From Spizellomyces punctatus DAOM BR117 (lineage: Eukaryota), in the NCBI GenBank assembly GCA_000182565.2, contig KQ257465.1: a stretch of 64,000 nucleotides of DNA; one strand, written 5' to 3'. The notes beneath the pieces were generated by a model that was not told where the DNA came from, did not search any database, and saw only the letters and a program-made list of their open reading frames with translations. Position 1 is the stretch's first letter. Each line of letters starts with the position of its first letter. The position numbers and the translations under genes are program-made. This document shows positions 12,520-24,010 of this stretch, piece by piece.

Positions 12520-14651
12520 ATGTCATTGAAGAACCGTGCCGGCGGTGCTGTCAGCCCGGCGATGGATGTAAATGGGTCACCAACATCTGCTGAGATACCC
12601 CTACTACCTAGAACTGGACGGCCGAGTCGCGGGCGTACTGAAAAGACGGAAAAGAGCCAACCGCGCTGGTTGACACTAGAGTTTTTATTGTATTATGTGG
12701 TGATTGCGGTGGGGTTACCGGCATTGTTTATCTGTGCATGGGGATTTAGCAGTGGTAGGTGGGGCATAAAAGGCGTTATGGTTTCTGGACATGAATTTGA
12801 ATTTAAACGCGTTATGTCGTAACTTTAGCAAACCACATCAATTACTACCAATATTCACGAAAACTTGGCAAAGGCTGGTTACTCGGTCGCAGAGTCGATA
12901 ATAGCGATGCTCAGTATGCATCTTTCCGCAACAATATTCCCCTCCTTTCCTACGTCCTTGTAGGCCACATTCTCCTGTCAAACGTCGTTCAACGTCAAAT
13001 CCCTTCCCTCCGACCGCTATTCTCCCTCATCTTTTCCCTCATCTTCCTATCTGTCATTCATGGTAGTTCGGTCATCAAAATCCTAGTCCTTGCAGCTGTC
13101 AACTACGCGGTGGCGAAATATGTGGGAGGTCGATTGGGAGTGGCATTATCGTGGATATGGAGTTTAGGGGTGTTGTTTGCAAATAATGCGTATGATGGGT
13201 ATAAATTTGCGAGTTTAAGTCAGGATTTGGCGTGGTTGGTGAGTTTTGTCTGGCTGTTCTCGCTGATTTGGTGCAATTGCTGCCGAGGGTGACTCTAATT
13301 TCTCGGTTAAGGACAAGTACAAAGGGATCAACATGCGATGGTGGATCACGTTCAATTTCACAACTTTGAGAATGATATCGTTTGCTATGGACTATTACTG
13401 GCAGACGAACGGAGGACGTGATAAGAGCAAATACGAAGTATGCAAACAAGTAGGGATATCCAGTCGCGCTGCGGAGTGGTACTAATGACAGTCAAGCAGA
13501 CACACCGGCAAACCTGCAGCGAATGTTCCTCTGCCACCCATCCCGGTGAACAATGCTCCAAATCCCGCATCGAAACTCCTCTCTCAGCGTCATCCTACAA
13601 CCTCCTCAACTACTACACCTACCTTCTCTACGTTCCCCTCTATCTCGCCGGTCCCATCATCACATTCAACGACTTTACAGCCCAACTTCGACATCCACCC
13701 AAATCGATAACAATGAAAAGCACGCTTTTGTATGCTGTTAGATGGATTTTGGTTGTCTTGTGCATGGAGTGGATTCTACACACGATTTATGTGGTCGCCA
13801 TCAAGGACACCAAGGCGTGGGGTGGGTTTACGCCCTTTCAGATGAGCATGGTGGGCTATTTCAATCTCAAATTGATTTGGTTAAAGGTGGGTACCATATT
13901 TTAGAGTTTGGTGTGTGGGAGTTTGCTCACTGTTTTTATGTACGACAGTTGCTGATTATTTGGAGATACTTTCGATTATGGGTATGTCATTTAGCTCGAG
14001 CTTTGGTAGGCGTTAGATGGGACAACTAATTACTTGCAAACAGGCCATGGCTGACCGTATTGAGACAACGGAAAATATGACACGGTGCATGAGTGACAAT
14101 TACTCTGCGATTGAGTTTTGGCGGTCTTGGCATCGATCCTTTAATCGGTGGCTTGTCCGGTAAGCGCATGCATTGCCAGATTTTGGGGTCCAAGCACAGT
14201 GCTAATACCATTTTGGGACAGTTATGTTTATATTCCCTTGGGCGGCCAACGCTACTATGCCCTCAACATCTTCCCCACCTTCACCTTTGTGGCGGTCTGG
14301 CACGACATTTCACTCAAACTCTTGACTTGGGGTTGGCTCGTCGCCATCTTTATCCTCCCCGAACTCGCTCTCCGCAAATCCTTTGCCACACCGCAATTCA
14401 GAGCAAAACTCGGCGGCTGGTACCGCATGCTCAAAGGCATTGCAGCCGTCTTGAACATTTGGCTGATGATGATTGCGAATCTGGTCGGCTTTGCTGTGGG
14501 AGTAGATGGCGTACGCGAAATGATGCGTCAAATTATTTTTGGAGAGGGTGGGACTGTGTTTTTGGTGTGCTCTTTTGTAGCTGTTTTTGCTGCTGTACAA
14601 CTTATGTTTGAGTTGAGGGAGGAGGAGAAGAGACGGGGGTGGAAGAAGTAA
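12520..14651 (+). CDS. GUP1: GUP1/HHAT-like membrane-bound O-acyltransferase
   Basis: [72 protein letters not shown]. Confidence 0.92.
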
Positions 14652-16748: not shown

Positions 16749-17672
16749 TCAGCCCACTCTTTCAGACGCATTACATGTACTGCACAAAATAACCAGTCCA
16801 GTATCATTGTCGAAGGTAAAGTCAGGCGTGCCAGGACAGAGTTGCCTGAGCAGAGGGCCTATGATGAGAGCCAGGTGATTTGTCACAATACAGGAAATTG
16901 GACTTACTCGTGATTGGAGGAAAGTTGTCGTATTTGGCGTTTAAGAGTCTCCACTGAGAACGGAGATCCAGTGCGAGGATCTACTCGCAGGTTACAGGAA
17001 GAGCAGACTATTTGGTTTCCGGCTATAGTCATCACTCCCTGCCGGCAGACAATGCACGTATCTGAAGAATCTGGGGCCCCATAACCTGGTATATCATCAT
17101 CCATCATAATCATATCAATGTCTTCCTCTTGATTTAACGAGCTCTCGTACACCGCAAGGATCTGATCATCCCACGTCTCAGGTCCCTCCTCATACCCTGC
17201 CGTCTCAAGTGCTAGTTCCCGCAAGATCTCTTCCTCGAAAACCAAAGGAATAGATCCTTGTGCATTAGCTTCTGTTCGAAACTGTTGCCACTGACTGGAA
17301 ATGAAAGAACGGGCCCACTGAAAAAGGGCGAAGAATGGTATCTCAAGCAGATATCGTTTGAATGTTCAGAGGTGCAGTTTCTACCTGTTGCTCAACAATT
17401 TCATCCCAGTTCTCATTCACCTGGACCTTTGGACCATCTTTCAGTGGACTACTGGCAATATTCCCAAACCTCCTCCGCCGAACTTCTGCATCGCGAGACT
17501 CTTTTACTCTGCTTAAACATTGGAGCCTGAAACGTTCACGCCATGTCGGTGTACTAGGTGATGAGGGGGATCCAGTGCGTTCGGACCGTTCAGACGGTGA
17601 GAGAGGGGAGGATATATGTGGTGCGTAGGGTCGCTTGACAGGTGTTCTTGCCGGACATTGCGTATGTGCCAT
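16749..17672 (-). CDS. RPAIN: RPA-interacting protein (RIP/RPAIN)
   Basis: N-terminal PTWRERFRLQCLSRVKESR; C-terminal zinc finger CIVC..CSSC..HEQLC..CSTC after splicing; TGA stop at 16749. Confidence 0.8.
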
Positions 17673-17891
17673 TGGGTCTAGTCGCAATTAGTGAATGAAG
17701 TGGGGCGAAATCCTTTCCTTGTCCGAAATCACGTTACTGTACTGTACGTAAGCAATAGGTCACGTGGCTTTTGGAATTGCCAAGAGGCCGTCTTACTATT
17801 GGAATATTTATTTTCTAAAACACAATTCTACAAAATAATAGTAATCAAAAGAATGGTCATCTTAAGCAATCAATGGACGCTTAATATGCAG

Positions 17892-19338
17892 TTATTTGCC
17901 GGGTGGTGATAGGCCTATCCAAGCCGGGGGAATTTTTAACTGTTCGCAGAGCGCACGACCAAAGAGCTTGTTATCGTGAACCAGGAGGAACGGCTGAATG
18001 ACGGCACCCACTATAACCATCGTGTGGCCAAAAAAATCCATAACGTACGGGCAAGCCTTTCCAGATATTGCCTCTGAAATGTCGAACATTATGATTATTC
18101 CACTGCGGATTCCAAACGGTACAACTAGTCTTACCGTATGCAAACATTGTTGCATGAATGCACCATCCAAACATGAACAGCCCGACAATACGGACGGAAC
18201 GCCGAAGAACTTCTCTCTCCAAGCGCTGGGTTTTTTGCTTTCTTGTCATGCTTTTCTTTGTAAAGGACACCCGTTTGCTGCGAGCACCTTGGCTATTCTC
18301 CTCTGCCTGGTCATCAAGGTCCCCGTTTCCAAAAAAACTCAATGAGAATTTGATATTCTCCCTAAGTCGCGCCCAAAATCCCCCACCACCGTCCGCCGCA
18401 GGCACCATTTGTTCATGTTGCGATTGATCAATCGTACTGTTTCCATTTGAAGACATCATCAGTTCAGTCTTAATCATTCCGCTCAGCTCATTAACTTGTG
18501 ATCGAACGACTAGGAAAGTTTTCCCGTAGAATACAACCGTCAGCACCATTGTCGAACTCAACATGATGATGCAGAAAATGGTATGAGCTAGAGCCAGGGG
18601 TTCGCGGGTATACCATGCCCCAGAGCAAGCGATCTGGGCTGGCCGCAAGACGAATCGTCCAGTAAGCCAAGGGTATGTCCCGATGAACAAACCAGGTACC
18701 CATGTCATCATTGCCATTACGATCATGATCGGGACGGTCACTTGTCTTTGCTATAAAAATAGATTTTCAGGAATTTGATCGCAAGACCCCAATCCCCATT
18801 ATTTTGCCAGCAACTAACCTTAACAATGACCAGATATCTCTCGATGCTGATAGTGAAAGTTGACATCCCCGCCTCAGATCCAAACCCCAACCCACTCCAC
18901 CCTTCGAACGCGCAAAAGTTGGCCGAGGCAAACTCCCCGTGTATCGAATTGTAGATGGTTATGGGCGCAGAAAATCTTAAAACAGCGACAATATTGAAAT
19001 AGCCAGGAAATAAGATAATAGCCAGGGATACAGAGCATAATTTTGGTACTCACCCGCCAAAAAGCATGTTCGCAATAACCATCCCGAAAATAACCACCAT
19101 GTTTGAAGGCGTCCATAGTCGGCGATCGCGACAAAACACATACAGTATGACAAAGTTGAAAAGGAAACAAAGTGCTAACAAAATCCCAACCTTTCAGTTT
19201 CGAGACGAAGGCAAATGAGTCACAACTACCGACCCCACACAAAATACTTTTTTACTATTCTCTTACAAGCATGCTAAGAATTTGCGTCGATCTCGACGTA
19301 GGCACAGGAAAGTCCTGGCTTTCAATTCCGGTGTACAT
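17892..19338 (-). CDS. Rhodopsin-class (opsin-like) GPCR, 5 exons, about 387 aa, lacking the Schiff-base lysine
   Basis: Exons 19338-19267, 19190-19054, 18975-18819, 18750-18135 and 18073-17892 join in frame. Motifs: FNFVILYVF..RLWTPSN, CAFEG..SIERYLVIVK, EREVLRR..FMFGW, QPFLL..NKLF. Confidence 0.88.
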
Positions 19339-19977
19339 CTTTGATATCAGAAAAATGTAGTTGGATTTGGATATGCCGTGGGGACAGAACGGGTCAGACA
19401 CAGACTCTTTAAAATGTTCCTCATGTCTATTATAAACCACCCAGGATTAAGTTGGCTTTGTCAATGGTTACTATTCTGTGAGGGTAACCGATCCTCGGAC
19501 AATAGGGAACCGAAATCAGGACTCGTGGCATCTGCAAGCAAAAAAGGAGCATGTGGGCAAATGTTGACTCTAAAATTTCCGTTTACGGAAGATGCGTGAA
19601 ATATTTATGAGGGTTATCCCTTGGATGCGAATGAGATCCTAGCCAAATATTCCTCTATTTAGAATAAGGTGCAGGTTAAATACACTAAGGCAAACCTTAT
19701 ACAAAGGTTTATCCTTAAGAGTATTTATCCCTTAACCCACCTATCCAGTGGTGCATGTGATCCCAGCAACTCCCGCCCAAGGCATACGACCCTGTTGCTC
19801 TCTCCGGGGTTTCAGGCACTGCGATGGAATCCAACTTTCGATAACATTCATAATCTTTGTTGAAACCACTTCCCTTGTGGTAACTAGTTCACATGCAAAG
19901 GATAGGGGTATATTCAACAAGGATCAAAAACAGCATTTGGCCGTATTGTGTATATAACAAAAGAAACAATCTTCCAT

Positions 19978-21222
19978 TTACTTCATTGATAGCACATGCC
20001 TCACGTCGTCGACATATCGCAAGGCATCCAAAAAAAGTAGCATATCCAGCAACGCTTCGTCCCGCGGGTCGCTTATCCAGCCCTCTATTGGTATTCCATT
20101 GTCTGGAAAGAGTCACAACAGCGGACGAGATCAGGAGCGAGATCAATAGCATGTGCATAACGTCGTACGAGATCTCACCTTCATTGTCTTGGTAGGATAT
20201 CGGAGAATTATCCACTAAACAAACCTGCGACAAGTCGGGTTCGACGATTGCGAGGTTCTTAATGTAAGTTCCATTGGAGTGTCGGCAGGCCTTGACCCCG
20301 TAGACAAGTCAGCTAGGAATGAAAGGACTATGCCAAAGCATTCGATACTCACCTGTCTGAAAAGACGCTGGGAGACCATATTCCGCCGTGGGTCTAACCA
20401 GTCAATAACCGGATCGGCATATTCGGGCATCGACGCCGTAAATATAACGACATTATACCATTCGCTGACCTTGGAAATGGAGCACAAGATTATGAAGATC
20501 AGTAATTGCTCAATAGAATGAGAGCCGTATCAGTACATAAAAGCCACCTTCTGGAGAAAAAAATCGCAAAACGGTCTCTTGAATACATAATATAAACACA
20601 CATGACGGTCAACCGTGACCTCGACTACGTGATCATAGTTGCGTGAGTGTCGAGATGTCGAGTGAATAAGAGTCTCGTCCAGATCTAGCACTAGAGTTTT
20701 CTTTCTACAAGGTATGGAGGGAGTTCTGCGAAGGGTATTTTGTGTAGCAGACCTCTTCACTGGTGGCGTTTTAGACGCTCGAGGTCCACGTAAATGTCCT
20801 AGTTGACGAGGATGTTGGACATCGCTGGCATTGGAGTCCGAGTCGGTAATTGAGTCTGATTCGGACGAGGAGGAAGATGAAGAGGATACGCCACTTCCTG
20901 AGGAACCACTTCCCTGCTTTTCCTTCAGACGCCGAGACCTTCTCGGTGAAGGGCTCCCTGTCGCCAGCTTTCCTTTTGACACTTTCCCCCCACGGCGTTT
21001 CGCACTAGCAGCCTCACTCGTACTCCCAAGTCGCACCCTCCCAGCTTGCAAGCGCTGCCTCCAACTTGAAACTGGCAACAAACCGATGAAAATCCTCAAT
21101 ATCCATTGTATACTCCATGTGAGATATGACCAAAGGGTTTCCGCTGCTTGGGTTAGGATTGGCTCCGTAGCATCCTCGCTCGGAACAAGTGACACACCAG
21201 CTTTGACCATGGTATAGCTCAT
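19978..21222 (-). CDS. NEM1: NEM1/CTDNEP1 (Dullard) HAD-family protein phosphatase
   Basis: [55 protein letters not shown]-terminal hydrophobic segment; start codon uncertain. Confidence 0.88.
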
Positions 21223-21690
21223 GGCAGAGTGCAGAGGGGAAAGGTTTGGAGCCCAAAGGTGGTGGACTTCTATCGTACTGCGCAAAGCCACTCTAGTCAG
21301 TGTAAGGTTCGGGAAGCATAGAGGAATATGCAGCTAACAGCATTAACTGAACAATTCCCACCTACGTTCTTAAACCAATTTTAGAACATTGTGTGATCCG
21401 GCGGGGAGATGGGAACACTGTGTATGGAGAGTAATAATATTGAGCAGGTGCGAACCAGCGGACGAGTCACTGGCCACGTACGCCTCCCTCTTGAGGCTAG
21501 TATGAGGCTCAGGACTCGGATGTCGTATATCCAAAAGTTAACGTAAAGTGTTATGCTGCTCGCAGACCTACGGTTCAAAAGGTCATCCTCCTTTTCATAG
21601 ACTTTTTCAATGATCCGGACTCAAACTCTTCTTTAATGTTAATGTTTTGAATAGTCTCTGGTCGCTGCTGTCGAAGAGCTTGGGGATATA

Positions 21691-21771: not shown

Positions 21772-24010
21772 ATGCCGCCAACAGCATTTCGAGTGTGCAG
21801 AACGTGCGCTCTACAGCATTATGGTCAAAGCCGGACATTCTTCTCCTTCGCAAAGGTCTTCCGCTCCTCAACACCACCTCCTGCTAAAGATAGTCCAAAT
21901 GTTCCGGTCCCGCATACGCCTTTCACCAGGCTACAAAATGAAGACGAACAAGAGCTGTACGATGATCTAACGGACAGGTTTTTGGAAAAGCTGAGGATGA
22001 CGGACAATGCCGAGGAAGCATGGGAAGACTACTCAAAACTGGTTGAAAGCACATTGGAGAAGGTCAGCTATGGTTCTCTTAATGTCTTCATGCGGAGGGC
22101 GATCTCCAGGGCGGCACTGTCTCACCTCACAAATCTAGTTCAACCTCTCGATCCTCTCTCACCACCGGCTCTTCAAAATGCTGCAGCTAACACCTGCGCC
22201 TAGGAGTGATTCTAAAGCACACGTCATGTCAAGCATCGTCAAAAAGCTGGCGTGGTCTGCCAAGTCAGAGGAGTATGAGCGGTTGATTCAAATTCATGAC
22301 AAGCAGGTACATTGAATAGTGCATTCAACTGTTCTAATCCCAAGAATCGAAAGTGACAAACACTACAATCTGTAGAATGATGTATCGAAAATCATCTCTC
22401 TGATAAATGAGATGCGACGAAATGGTATTCGTCCTACCATTCGTGCGTACAATCACCTCATTCGGGTTTACATTCGTAACAACAACTTGAAGGCTGCTAT
22501 GAGCATTTTTGAAAAACTTCGAAATACGAGCGAAACGGATGAATCCGCAGATCCGCATCTGAAACCCGACGTATATACTTACTCCTCGCTTATTCGTGGA
22601 CATTTGGAAAACTCAAATCATTCCGCCGCGGATCGATTATTTGGAGAAATGCGAGCATTGGGTATCGGCCCTAACCTTGCCCTATTCAATGCGCTGATGT
22701 TGAGTTATCTTCGGCGAGGGCGAAACGGAGCGGCTCTACGTCTCTTTGATGAGCTACGCAAAACAGAAAGCTTGGCACCTAACATTGTCAGCTATCGATT
22801 GCGCGTTGCAGCGTACGTGAATAGTGGAAATACGGTCGCGGCTCGCAGGGTGTTAGATGAGATGATATCGGGCAAAGATCCCCTTGTGCCTCTGCCAGAC
22901 TATGCGATATGGAAGATGGTGATTAAGGCGTACGCAGGCACTGAGAATTTGGCGATGGCCTTGGAACTGTTACAATTAATGCAGGAGAGATCTAGAAGAT
23001 TGTCCAATGAGGAAGACACAACTGTGGTAGCACCGAACGCCAGTATATTCTCAACAGTAATTGCTCTATGCTGCCGACAAGGCGAGATTGCAGACGCACA
23101 AAGGTTGTACGATGACATGCTACGCGAAGGAATGCGACCAACGCCCGCGATATGGAACACCATGATCGCCGCACTTGCTAGACACGGAGACGCGGTGTCA
23201 GCTAGGCGACTGTACAGCGCAGCACGGGAGAGCCAGGCGACCCTGAACGTTGATACTCTGGCAGAGCTTGTTCGAGCTTACCTCGCTAAAGGGCAATACA
23301 GTGCGGCAATAGAGATTGGGGTAGATGTAACCAAATTGGACGCGGCGGTGACAGCGGAAGCGATATCTCTTATTACCGAAAAGGTAGTTTGTCCTGTCGT
23401 GGAGGCACTGAGTTCTGATGGTCGTCATCTCGACCAAGCAACTACGCTGGTGCATGCTGTGATACGACAAGCGCAACACTATGGAGCACCATTGCCTTCA
23501 TTGTCCCGACTGTATTGTGCTTTGATGGACGGGTATGCAAAAGGTCCGAAAGGGTGGGAAAGGACTATCTTTTTGTTTCGTGAATACTTGGGACGCGGTG
23601 GTGAGAGAGAAGGGCCAATTTCTGATCTATTGATCAGACTGGCCAGTAAATTGCTGGCCCACCCTGCGAAGATCATTTTGGAAATGGTGGCGTCGAAGGA
23701 ATTATGCCCGACTGTATCTGGATGGATTCAGACTGTCGACGCGCTGTTGGATAGTGAGCGACAAGACGAACTCAGGGCATTGTTAAGTGGATTGAAAGGA
23801 CGGGATGAGGCGACGGCGAGATTGGGTTACGTAGTACTAGACATGGTTCTGGATAGGATTGATACCAGACACGATCAAACGGTTGCGAATACAGTTGACG
23901 GCGATGAAACGAAGAAGGAACACATGTATGCGTCCCCTGGGTTGGGGGAGGAGGAGATTGAGCAGATTTTGGCGCTTATCGCGAGACGATTAGCTCCTAC
24001 TAGTTGTTAA
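21772..24010 (+). CDS. Pentatricopeptide-repeat protein, probably mitochondrial
   Basis: Repeated 35-aa motifs (PTIRAYNHLI, PDVYTYSSLI, PNLALFNALM, PTPAIWNTMI); presequence-like N-terminus. Confidence 0.88.

What the first reader, a model, noticed from the sequence alone, without database searches (positions are those of the whole stretch)
17892..19338. Animal-type opsin-like GPCR in a fungus, hidden across five exons
Seen (the ORF track shows only fragments): TM1-2 LFNFVILYVFCRDRRLWTPSNMVVIFGMVIANMLFGGF; TM3 IYNSIHGEFASANFCAFEGWSGLGFGSEAGMSTFTISIERYLVIVK; EL2 GRFVLRPAQIACSGAWY; TM6 EREVLRRSVRIVGLFMFGW; helix 8 NKLF. These track bovine rhodopsin closely (INFLTLYV..KLRTPLN; LYTSLHGYF..CNLEG..AIERY; EKEVTR; NKQF), with TM3 ungapped from C110 to Y136. 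Known: rhodopsin-class GPCRs are rare in fungi and reported mainly from zoosporic lineages. Relevant to the origin of animal opsins and to zoospore taxis.
Basis: partly seen in the sequence, partly recalled or inferred. Interest (0 to 1): 0.8.

Follow-up and report, generated by a model that had tools for sequence, protein, structure and literature searches.

The report
Lysine-less opsin-like receptor in a chytrid
This is a real five-exon gene of the chytrid fungus Spizellomyces punctatus for a rhodopsin-family receptor that resembles animal opsins but lacks the lysine that holds retinal, so it is one more member of a receptor group already described in zoosporic fungi, not a light-sensing opsin.

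Summary
On the minus strand, 17892-19338, five exons with four GT..AG introns (76, 78, 68, 61 nt) give a 387-aa seven-helix protein. It is Spizellomyces punctatus SPPG_07527. GenBank's 333-aa model starts inside exon 2 and lacks helix 1. The added 54 residues match the N-termini of paralogues, and RNA reads confirm intron 4.

It is a class A GPCR (Pfam 7tm_1, 63.3 bits against a cut-off of 30.5). It belongs to the zoosporic-fungal clade reported in 2012 and sits next to SPPG_07634.

Among solved structures its best sequence matches are almost all animal opsins. The same is true of its paralogue and of profiles of the fungal family, but by small margins.

The position of the retinal lysine (7.43) is Ile348, and no lysine lies in helix 7. 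Asp2.50 is Asn and NPxxY is QPFLL. It is therefore opsin-resembling but not an opsin by definition. The ligand is unknown.

In passing: the "conserved lysine" of the published chytrid opsin SPPG_00350 appears to come from translating a 65-nt intron.

The parts
19267..19338 (-). Exon 1 (72 nt): ATG at 19338-19336, residues 1-24. Holds the N-terminal tail with the 'DFPVP' motif and the start of helix 1. Missing from the GenBank model.
   Evidence: splice model; this is the first ATG after an in-frame stop in ORF 19255-19446. N-terminal alignment to P0003, P0004 and P0005.
19191..19266 (-). Intron 1, 76 nt, GT..AG, phase 0
   Evidence: Supported only by homology of the joined product. No RNA reads cover it.
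19054..19190 (-). Exon 2 (137 nt): helix 1 (Asn36 = 1.50), loop ICL1, helix 2 (Asn65 at 2.50). GenBank's start codon (Met55) lies at 19100-19098 inside this exon.
   Evidence: hydropathy peaks at residues 24-42 and 55-73.
18976..19053 (-). Intron 2, 78 nt, GT..AG, phase 2
   Evidence: The junction is the same as in database protein P0001.
18819..18975 (-). Exon 3 (157 nt): ECL1 and helix 3, with Cys91 (3.25), Glu94 (3.28) and Glu115-Arg116-Tyr117
   Evidence: ungapped alignment to rhodopsin from Cys110 to Tyr136.
18751..18818 (-). Intron 3, 68 nt, GT..AG, phase 0
   Evidence: The junction is the same as in P0001.
18135..18750 (-). Exon 4 (616 nt): helix 4 (Trp139), ECL2 hairpin with Cys164, helix 5, a long ICL3 of about 85 residues, and helix 6 (Glu300 = 6.30, Trp318 = 6.48)
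18074..18134 (-). Intron 4, 61 nt, GT..AG, phase 1. Confirmed by RNA.
   Evidence: joint 18073->18135 skips 61 nt with CT..AC on the + strand, seen in 3 reads at 3 starts, plus 8 loose-end reads at 18074.
17892..18073 (-). Exon 5 (182 nt including TAA at 17894-17892): ECL3, helix 7 (Gln354-Pro355-Phe-Leu-Leu358 in place of NPxxY) and helix 8 (Asn-Lys-Leu-Phe)
18012..18014 (-). Codon ATA = Ile348, the position (7.43) where opsins carry the retinal Schiff-base lysine
   Evidence: HMMER alignment places bovine Lys296 opposite this Ile..
17761..17891 (-). Likely 3' untranslated region
   Evidence: RNA depth is 12-26 over 17761-17943 and falls to about 1 below 17761. All of these reads are first-mate-on-minus.

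Best explanation
The locus is the gene SPPG_07527 of the chytrid Spizellomyces punctatus. It is transcribed from the minus strand and spliced from five exons into a 387-residue seven-helix receptor of the rhodopsin family (class A GPCR). It belongs to the receptor clade that is confined mainly to zoosporic fungi. Within that clade it falls in a small subfamily with SPPG_07634 and proteins of Powellomyces and Phlyctochytrium.

Shown: the gene structure, expression of its 3' part, the 7tm_1 membership, the fungal relatives, and the absence of the retinal lysine.

Inferred: it works as a ligand-activated G-protein-coupled receptor, not a retinal Schiff-base photoreceptor. It keeps the parts that class A receptors use to hold and release the inactive state and to meet the G protein: Arg116 in Glu-Arg-Tyr, Glu300 at 6.30 (the ionic-lock partner, as in rhodopsin), Trp318 at 6.48, the Cys91-Cys164 pair, an ECL2 hairpin and helix 8. 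It has changed the sodium and water-network residues (Asp2.50 to Asn65, Asn7.49 to Gln354). This suggests altered, possibly sodium-insensitive, activation. The ligand is unknown. I guess a small hydrophobic or amphipathic molecule that enters a pocket lined by Glu94 (3.28), Arg158 (ECL2) and His321 (6.51).
For: Gene model.

Identity with SPPG_07527: P0001 is 99% identical over the exon-4 query, and 100% identical as first sequence of A1.

Splicing and expression. 162 RNA reads were laid from about 6% of run X7, and the intron 4 joint was seen.

N-terminal extension.

Family: Pfam 7tm_1 at 63.3 bits against a cut-off of 30.5.

Fold: AlphaFold2 model of P0001 with mean pLDDT 88.2 and pTM 0.82, showing six helices, helix 8 and an ECL2 hairpin. 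Helix 1 is supported by hydropathy.

Relatives: 87 proteins at E<=0.001 in 1.84 billion. 17 of the 30 looked up carry organism names, and 16 of those are zoosporic fungi.

Tree: the window protein joins its S. 'palustris' orthologue (SH-aLRT 98) inside a 6-row clade (98) with SPPG_07634, Powellomyces, Phlyctochytrium and P0036.

No Schiff-base lysine: Ile348 lies opposite bovine Lys296. In the 77-row family alignment the column holds Lys in 1 of 77 rows, and that row (P0085) is a true opsin-like protein from a metagenome.

Selective constraint: against the S. 'palustris' orthologue, 172 of 184 aligned positions outside ICL3 are identical, compared with 61 of 84 in ICL3.
Against: No ligand, G-protein coupling or cellular role was tested.

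Three class A microswitch motifs are altered: Asn at 2.50, Ile at 6.50 and QPFLL at 7.49-7.53. The protein could therefore signal unconventionally or not at all.

Introns 1-3 and the 5' end have no RNA support in the reads sampled.

The full 387-residue protein could not be given to Pfam, PDB or AlphaFold. Those results rest on the 333-residue database form, which lacks helix 1.

The consistent ranking of opsins first leaves room for a closer tie to opsins than 'generic class A' implies.
Confidence: 0.7

Rival explanations
1. It is a genuine relative of animal opsins that still senses light. Retinal would be bound non-covalently or through a non-canonical residue, and the fungal clade would be the sister lineage of animal opsins.
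For: Opsins are the top PDB sequence matches in every search. For this protein: 32.5 and about 29 bits, against 19.5 for the best non-opsin. For SPPG_07634: 41.8 against 37.8. For the 6-sequence subfamily profile: 95.4 against 86.0. For the 77-sequence family profile: squid rhodopsin 207.5, spider 190.3 and bovine 177.0, against alpha-2A adrenergic receptor 175.6. Foldseek's first 7 rows are rhodopsins. 5 of 10 structure rows in the Atlas are opsins. Glu94 lies opposite the bovine counterion Glu113, and helix 8 reads Asn-Lys-Leu-Phe opposite bovine Asn310-Phe313.
Against: No lysine at 7.43 or anywhere in helix 7. The ECL2 counterion position (bovine Glu181) is Arg158. Glu at 3.28 is not conserved in the subfamily: it is Gln, Gln, Glu and His in P0003-P0006. 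Score margins over amine receptors are small for the paralogue and for the subfamily profile. Foldseek E-values of opsins, adenosine A2A and prostanoid receptors lie within one order of magnitude. My tree did not join the clade to the one true opsin present (P0085), and the backbone is unresolved. Krishnan et al. 2012 report that fungal members cluster apart from all 13 human subgroups (passages read).
Confidence: 0.12
2. It is a decaying or non-signalling paralogue of SPPG_07634 that has lost the activation switches and no longer works as a receptor.
For: Asp2.50 is Asn65, Asn7.49 is Gln354 and Tyr6.51 of the family is His321. The paralogues P0003, P0004 and P0006 keep Asp at 2.50, and 60 of 77 family rows keep Asn at 7.49. 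Its 7tm_1 score (63.3 bits) is lower than those of SPPG_07634 (90.3) and SPPG_00350 (103.5). RNA depth over most of the gene is low.
Against: The frame is intact across five exons with canonical splice sites. The message is spliced and polyadenylation-end-biased. The orthologue in S. 'palustris' keeps the same unusual residues. Substitutions concentrate in ICL3: 23 of 35 differences fall in 84 of 268 aligned positions. ECL2 is 20 of 20 identical and helix 5 is 32 of 32.
Confidence: 0.1
3. The five-exon reading is an artefact of joining chance open frames.
For: Single exon translations score below Pfam's cut-off: 18.5 and 27.4 bits against 30.5. Exon 1 and intron 1 lack RNA evidence.
Against: The database protein shares three of the four junctions. 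RNA confirms one junction. The joined product scores 63.3 bits even without helix 1. Every part aligns co-linearly with homologues from other chytrids.
Confidence: 0.01

Closest known systems
SPPG_07634 of S. punctatus and its relatives in Powellomyces hirtus and Phlyctochytrium arcticum. These belong to the zoosporic-fungal 'Rhodopsin family' GPCRs of Krishnan et al. 2012 (PMC3251606).
   Same: Same contig record length (579,104). 33% identity at E 7e-43. Same N-terminal 'FP.P' motif, 'LYVF.R..LW..SN' after helix 1, 'ERY..IVKQ', ECL2 cysteine, long ICL3 and 'DN..F' helix 8. They form one clade with SH-aLRT 98.
   Different: SPPG_07527 is not among the eight S. punctatus sequences in that paper's Dataset S1. 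I read part 1 of 22, which holds all 12 rhodopsin-family entries, and a term search over the whole file found no '07527'. It has Asn instead of Asp at 2.50, and Gln-Pro instead of Asn-Met or Asn-Pro at 7.49-7.50. It also has a stronger match to vertebrate opsins in TM2-ECL2.
SPPG_00350, the published 'type 2 opsin-like GPCR' of S. punctatus (Ahrendt et al. 2017, PMC5410147). It was used as the query in Galindo et al. 2022 (PMC9616733).
   Same: Same species and same fungal class A family: P0019, E 1e-9, 24% identity. Same Cys91 / Glu-Arg-Tyr 115-117 numbering. For both, bovine rhodopsin is the top PDB match.
   Different: It is a different locus on a different contig and lies outside the SPPG_07527 subfamily in the tree. 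The paper states that SPPG_00350 has the retinal lysine (K320), whereas SPPG_07527 has Ile. However, in the NCBI model of SPPG_00350 (P0019) the same position is also Ile. K320 exists only in the authors' edited model, which reads through a 65-nt GTAAGT..AACAG stretch after one added base.
Bovine rhodopsin and vertebrate cone opsins (PDB 1F88, 1U19, 9IBW and others)
   Same: Best solved-structure matches by sequence. Shared features: 'FGGF' in helix 2, 'HG.F' in ECL1, Cys-x-x-Glu-Gly at the start of helix 3, 'IERY.V..K', the 'R(F/Y)....Q..C...YT' hairpin in ECL2, Glu at 6.30, Trp at 6.48 and 'NK.F' in helix 8. The class A fold has an ECL2 hairpin.
   Different: Lys296 is Ile348. Glu181 is Arg158. 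Asp83 is Asn65. Pro267 is Ile320 and Tyr268 is His321. Asn302 is Gln354 and Tyr306 is Leu358. ICL3 is about 85 residues long. The N-terminus is very short, with about 23 residues before helix 1. Overall identity is only 14-19% in structural alignments.
Lysine-less opsin-like receptors of animals, such as the placozoan 'placopsins'. This is recalled from the literature; no paper was read and no sequence compared here.
   Same: The concept is the same: class A receptors that resemble opsins but lack the Schiff-base lysine. P0071, a lysine-less sister of the true opsin-like P0085, is an example seen here.
   Different: Those proteins group with opsins in published trees (recalled). For the fungal clade no such grouping was shown here.

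Membership tests
Class A / rhodopsin-family GPCR (Pfam PF00001 7tm_1) | Profile score above Pfam's gathering cut-off | tested here: met
   P0001 (residues 55-387 of the model) scores 63.3 bits, E 3.1e-17, against a cut-off of 30.5. It covers profile positions 23-258 of 260.
Class A / rhodopsin-family GPCR (Pfam PF00001 7tm_1) | Seven transmembrane helices plus helix 8 | tested here: met
   The AlphaFold2 model of P0001 shows helices 2-7 and helix 8, with pLDDT 88.2. Helix 1 is a hydropathy peak at model residues 24-42 and aligns with helix 1 of the paralogues. The full-length protein itself was not folded.
Class A / rhodopsin-family GPCR (Pfam PF00001 7tm_1) | E/DRY at the end of helix 3, and the Cys3.25-ECL2 cysteine pair | tested here: met
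   Glu115-Arg116-Tyr117, Cys91 and Cys164 lie opposite bovine ERY, Cys110 and Cys187.
Class A / rhodopsin-family GPCR (Pfam PF00001 7tm_1) | Asp2.50, CWxP in helix 6 and NPxxY in helix 7 (typical but not obligatory motifs) | tested here: not met
   Asn65 at 2.50. Gly-Trp-Cys-Ile at 6.47-6.50: Trp is kept and Pro is absent, as in the fungal family consensus W-x-x-Y. Gln-Pro-Phe-Leu-Leu at 7.49-7.53.
Animal (type II) opsins | Lysine at 7.43 (bovine Lys296) forming the retinal Schiff base | tested here: not met
   Ile348 lies opposite Lys296 in the HMMER alignment. It is seven residues before Pro355 (7.50). No Lys occurs in helix 7, and the nearest is Lys331 in ECL3.
Animal (type II) opsins | Acidic counterion at 3.28 (Glu113) or in ECL2 (Glu181) | tested here: inconclusive
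   Glu94 lies opposite Glu113, but Arg158 lies opposite Glu181. Glu at 3.28 is present in 2 of the 5 subfamily rows that cover helix 3 (P0001 and P0005; P0002 lacks it). Without the lysine the residue has no counterion role to play.
Animal (type II) opsins | Monophyly with opsins to the exclusion of other class A receptors | tested here: inconclusive
   Opsins rank first in four PDB sequence searches and in Foldseek. No tree with sampled animal receptor families could be built, because no named animal sequences could be obtained. The 82-row tree does not join the clade to the one opsin-like row.
Animal (type II) opsins | Binds retinal and responds to light | not testable with these tools
   Needs expression, reconstitution with retinal isomers and spectroscopy.
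Zoosporic-fungal rhodopsin-family GPCR clade (Krishnan et al. 2012) | Nearest relatives are chytrid and blastoclad receptors | tested here: met
   the top hits are P0002-P0012. Of the 30 looked up, 17 carry organism names: 16 zoosporic fungi and 1 coral. The clade with SPPG_07634 has support 98.
Zoosporic-fungal rhodopsin-family GPCR clade (Krishnan et al. 2012) | The paper's motifs: Asp in helix 2, ERY, NP followed by xxX (not Tyr), cysteines in ECL1 and ECL2 | tested here: inconclusive
   ERY and both cysteines are present. Leu at 7.53 fits 'NPxxX'. But Asp2.50 is Asn and Asn7.49 is Gln.

The most novel reading that the evidence does not exclude
The zoosporic-fungal class A clade, of which SPPG_07527 is the member most like vertebrate opsins in TM2-ECL2 (including Glu at 3.28), is the sister lineage of animal opsins, and none of its members carries the retinal lysine. 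The opsin scaffold would then predate animals, and the Schiff-base lysine would be an animal innovation. The one published lysine-bearing fungal type II opsin would be a gene-model artefact.
Probability: 0.15. Interest if true: 0.7.

Novelty: new member of a known kind. Interest (0 to 1): 0.35.

Why it matters
Rhodopsin-family GPCRs in chytrids were described in 2012, and an 'opsin-like' one in 2017, so the class is not new.

Three things are added here.

1. A ninth or tenth S. punctatus member appears in neither published list. Its GenBank model lacks helix 1, and a corrected 387-residue model is given.

2. An unbiased search shows that this protein, its paralogue and the whole fungal family score best against animal opsins among all solved receptors. 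This keeps the question of a pre-animal origin of the opsin scaffold open and testable.

3. Neither this protein nor the spliced form of SPPG_00350 has the retinal lysine. [quoted passage not shown]

For zoospore biology, this is a candidate chemoreceptor in a genetically tractable chytrid.

Tried and rejected
- Own-genome scan for PF00001: no genome is held for this window. Paralogues were found through protein searches instead.
- Indexed sequencing runs: no RNA holder is listed. The unindexed RNA run X7 was laid instead. Runs X1-X3 gave only unspliced, DNA-like contigs, which say nothing about splicing.
- Profile search of the 5.8-billion-protein collection with alignment A1 returned only 5 proteins. 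It did not supply named animal receptors, so no tree with opsins, melatonin, amine and peptide receptors could be built.
- The 82-row tree left the backbone unresolved: 34 of 79 inner branches are open. The few animal rows (coral P0058, barnacle P0091, opsin-like P0085 and P0071) sit on long branches. It says nothing firm about opsin kinship.
- Rows left out of that tree: P0001 (replaced by the full model), cluster duplicates P0089, P0090 and P0092-P0101, and every protein under 250 aa.
- The full spliced protein was not submitted to Pfam, PDB, AlphaFold or the Atlas, because a joined sequence may not be typed. P0001, which lacks helix 1, stood in.
- Reads on the minus strand at 19347-19407 could be the receptor's 5' UTR or the 3' end of the upstream NIF-phosphatase gene. 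They were not used as evidence.
- Literature: 'SPPG_07527' found in 0 papers. 'SPPG_00350 / chytropsin / chytriopsin / chytrid opsin' found only the two known papers. A search on Spizellomyces, GPCR, zoospore and chemotaxis (at least 3 of the 4 terms) listed 12 of 35 papers, none of them a functional study of a chytrid GPCR by title or abstract start.
- Paper reading closed, so the supplements of Galindo et al. 2022 (Table S3) were not seen. They may list SPPG_07527 among their hits.
- Table S1 (.xls) of Krishnan et al. 2012 was not seen. Its FASTA Dataset S1 was.
Full report
**What is there.** The finding lies on the minus strand. Reading the minus strand and joining at canonical sites gives five exons: 19267-19338, 19054-19190, 18819-18975, 18135-18750 and 17892-18073. 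The introns are 76, 78, 68 and 61 nt, and all are GT..AG. The coding sequence is 1164 nt and encodes 387 residues plus TAA. A nearer acceptor for intron 4, which would give a 32-nt intron, runs into a stop in my own reading, so the 61-nt intron is the one that keeps the frame. The ATG at 19338 is the first in its frame after a stop (ORF 19255-19446).

**Whose gene it is.** The exon-4 frame finds SPPG_07527 of Spizellomyces punctatus DAOM BR117 (P0001, 333 aa, 99% identical). It also finds an 84-87% identical protein of Spizellomyces sp. 'palustris' (P0002). P0001 equals my model from residue 55 to the end, so the database model shares introns 2-4. However, it starts at the ATG at 19100 inside exon 2 and has no helix 1. 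The 54 extra residues are supported by homology. They align from the very N-terminus with Powellomyces hirtus P0004 (42% over 50 aa, residues 5-54 of both) and with SPPG_07634 (44%). Both alignments include the 'FP.P' motif and the 'LYVF.R..LW..SN' stretch.

**RNA evidence.** One RNA run (X7, raw reads, about 6% read) gave 162 reads. These were strongly biased to the 3' end, with depth 12-26 over 17761-18065. The run shows the joint 18073->18135 (61 nt skipped, CT..AC on the plus strand) in 3 reads at 3 start positions. Eight further loose-end reads at 18074 have an overhang that matches exon 4. Introns 1-3 had no coverage. Runs X1-X3 hold unspliced contigs only.

**Family.** Single exon frames fall short of Pfam's cut-off. 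P0001 scores 63.3 bits on 7tm_1 against a cut-off of 30.5. AlphaFold2 with a 77-row family alignment gives a confident class A fold: pLDDT 88.2, pTM 0.82, an ECL2 hairpin and helix 8.

An exhaustive HMMER search of 1.84 billion representatives finds only 87 proteins at E<=0.001. I looked up 30 of them, and 17 carry organism names. Sixteen are zoosporic fungi: Spizellomyces, Powellomyces, Phlyctochytrium, Gaertneriomyces, Sorochytrium, Boothiomyces, Chytriomyces, Kappamyces, Allomyces and Clydaea. One is a coral. Some carry automatic names such as 'Melanopsin' or 'Opsin-5'.

In an 82-row tree the window protein joins its S. 'palustris' orthologue (SH-aLRT 98). Together they sit in a 6-row clade (98) with SPPG_07634, Powellomyces, Phlyctochytrium and an unnamed P0036. 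SPPG_00350 lies outside this clade, and the backbone is unresolved. The window holds no second family member.

Neighbouring genes are unrelated: a NIF-type phosphatase, a PPR protein, an MBOAT and an RPA-interacting protein.

**How opsin-like it is.** A phmmer search of all PDB chains with P0001 gives 27 sequences at E<=1.
- 19 are named rhodopsin or cone opsin. SWS1 opsin scores 32.5 bits (E 4.8e-7) and bovine rhodopsin about 29 bits.
- 1 is an unnamed nascent chain.
- The rest start at 19.5 bits (NPFF2 receptor).

The preference for opsins is a property of the family, but the margins vary:

| Query | Best opsin score (bits) | Best non-opsin score (bits) |
|---|---|---|
| SPPG_07634 | top 17 rows are opsins, 41.8-38.2 | 5-HT2B, 37.8 |
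| 6-row subfamily profile | 95.4 (squid), 88.7 (bovine) | alpha-1A adrenergic, 86.0 |
| 77-row family profile | 207.5, 196.1, 191.0 (squid), 190.3 (spider), 177.0 (bovine) | alpha-2A adrenergic, 175.6 |

Foldseek puts rhodopsins in its first 7 rows, but adenosine and prostanoid receptors lie within the same order of E-value. The Atlas lists opsins in 5 of 10 structure rows, beside EP4 and cholecystokinin receptors. So 'tracks rhodopsin' is a fair description. 'Is specifically related to opsins' is not shown.

**Why it is not an opsin.** The HMMER alignment places the following residues opposite bovine rhodopsin positions:

| Bovine rhodopsin | SPPG_07527 |
|---|---|
| Lys296 | Ile348 |
| Asn302-Pro303 | Gln354-Pro355 |
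| Tyr306 | Leu358 |
| Glu181 | Arg158 |
| Asp83 | Asn65 |
| Pro267-Tyr268 | Ile320-His321 |
| Glu113 | Glu94 |
| Glu247 | Glu300 |
| Trp265 | Trp318 |
| Asn310-Phe313 | Asn-Lys-Leu-Phe |

Helix 7 contains no lysine. In the 77-row family alignment the 7.43 column holds Lys once. That row, P0085, comes from a metagenome and is a true opsin-like protein: squid rhodopsin scores 106 bits against 56 bits for the best non-opsin, and its Lys aligns to the squid Schiff-base Lys.

**Whether it is functional.** The orthologue keeps the unusual residues. Outside ICL3, 172 of 184 aligned positions are identical, against 61 of 84 in ICL3. ECL2 is 20 of 20 identical and helix 5 is 32 of 32. Together with the spliced message, this argues for a working protein. 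I infer a ligand-activated, G-protein-coupled receptor with an altered sodium/water network. The ligand is unknown.

**What is already known.** Krishnan et al. 2012 listed eight S. punctatus rhodopsin-family receptors: SPPG_00617, 03814, 08085, 07634, 02244, 07927, 01340 and 02538. I read Dataset S1 part 1, and '07527' is absent from the whole file. Ahrendt et al. 2017 modelled SPPG_00350 as an opsin because it 'possessed a conserved lysine' (passages). Galindo et al. 2022 used it to infer a type II rhodopsin in the fungal ancestor (passages). No paper holds 'SPPG_07527'.

**Side finding on SPPG_00350.** The 2017 supplement shows that the authors' edited locus differs from the original by one inserted base just 5' of helix 7. 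Their protein then reads through a 65-nt GTAAGT..AACAG stretch. That adds 22 residues, and K320 lies in the last of them. The NCBI model (P0019) splices this stretch out and reads '...GAIVNSAFNPVLF', which is co-linear with the family. Its residue seven positions before Pro7.50 is Ile. The published lysine is therefore probably intron-derived. I could not test this with RNA.

**Verdict.** This is a new, mis-annotated member of a known fungal receptor family. It resembles opsins but lacks the lysine.

Noticed in passing
Not in the window: SPPG_00350 locus of S. punctatus (P0019; supplement file 4 of PMC5410147): The published chytrid 'opsin' model SPPG_00350T0L was made by inserting one base just 5' of helix 7. 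It then reads through a 65-nt GTAAGT..AACAG stretch, adding 22 residues that contain the claimed retinal lysine K320. The NCBI model splices this stretch out, is co-linear with the family, and has Ile at 7.43.
   Followed up: partly
window 19098-19100 (-) against 19336-19338 (-): The GenBank/RefSeq model of SPPG_07527 starts at Met55 inside exon 2, so it encodes a six-helix protein. The S. 'palustris' orthologue model (P0002, 268 aa) is truncated even further and starts within helix 3.
   Followed up: yes
Proteins P0085 and P0071 (metagenome contigs of about 2.9 kb): These form a tight pair. P0085 is a true opsin-like protein with the Schiff-base lysine (squid rhodopsin 106 bits). Its sister P0071 has no lysine at 7.43. 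Both have Asn at 2.50, like SPPG_07527, and both are among the 87 significant hits to SPPG_07527. The organism is unknown.
   Followed up: partly
Proteins P0016, P0022, P0093, P0082, P0025: NCBI records give members of this fungal family automatic names: 'Melanopsin' (Kappamyces), 'Opsin-5' (Allomyces), 'Trace amine-associated receptor 8' (Gaertneriomyces) and 'G-protein coupled receptor 63' (Sorochytrium). One is even named 'DEAD-box ATP-dependent RNA helicase 3, chloroplastic' (Clydaea). These names are best-hit transfers, not findings.
   Followed up: no
window 19286-19346 (+) and 19347-19407 (-): A few RNA reads lie antisense to exon 1 (mean depth 3.1). A few sense reads lie just upstream of the start codon (mean depth 2.7). 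The latter could be the receptor's 5' UTR or the 3' end of the upstream NIF-phosphatase gene.
   Followed up: no
window 19889-21333 (-), 22376-24010 (+), 13425-13904 (+), 16904-17365 (-): The neighbouring open frames match NIF (CTD-like phosphatase), PPR repeats, MBOAT acyltransferase and RPA_interact_C. They have no evident functional link to the receptor.
   Followed up: partly
window 17792: One contig of run X3 carries an extra T behind 17792, in the presumed 3' UTR. Depth is 2.4, so this is likely an assembly error.
   Followed up: no
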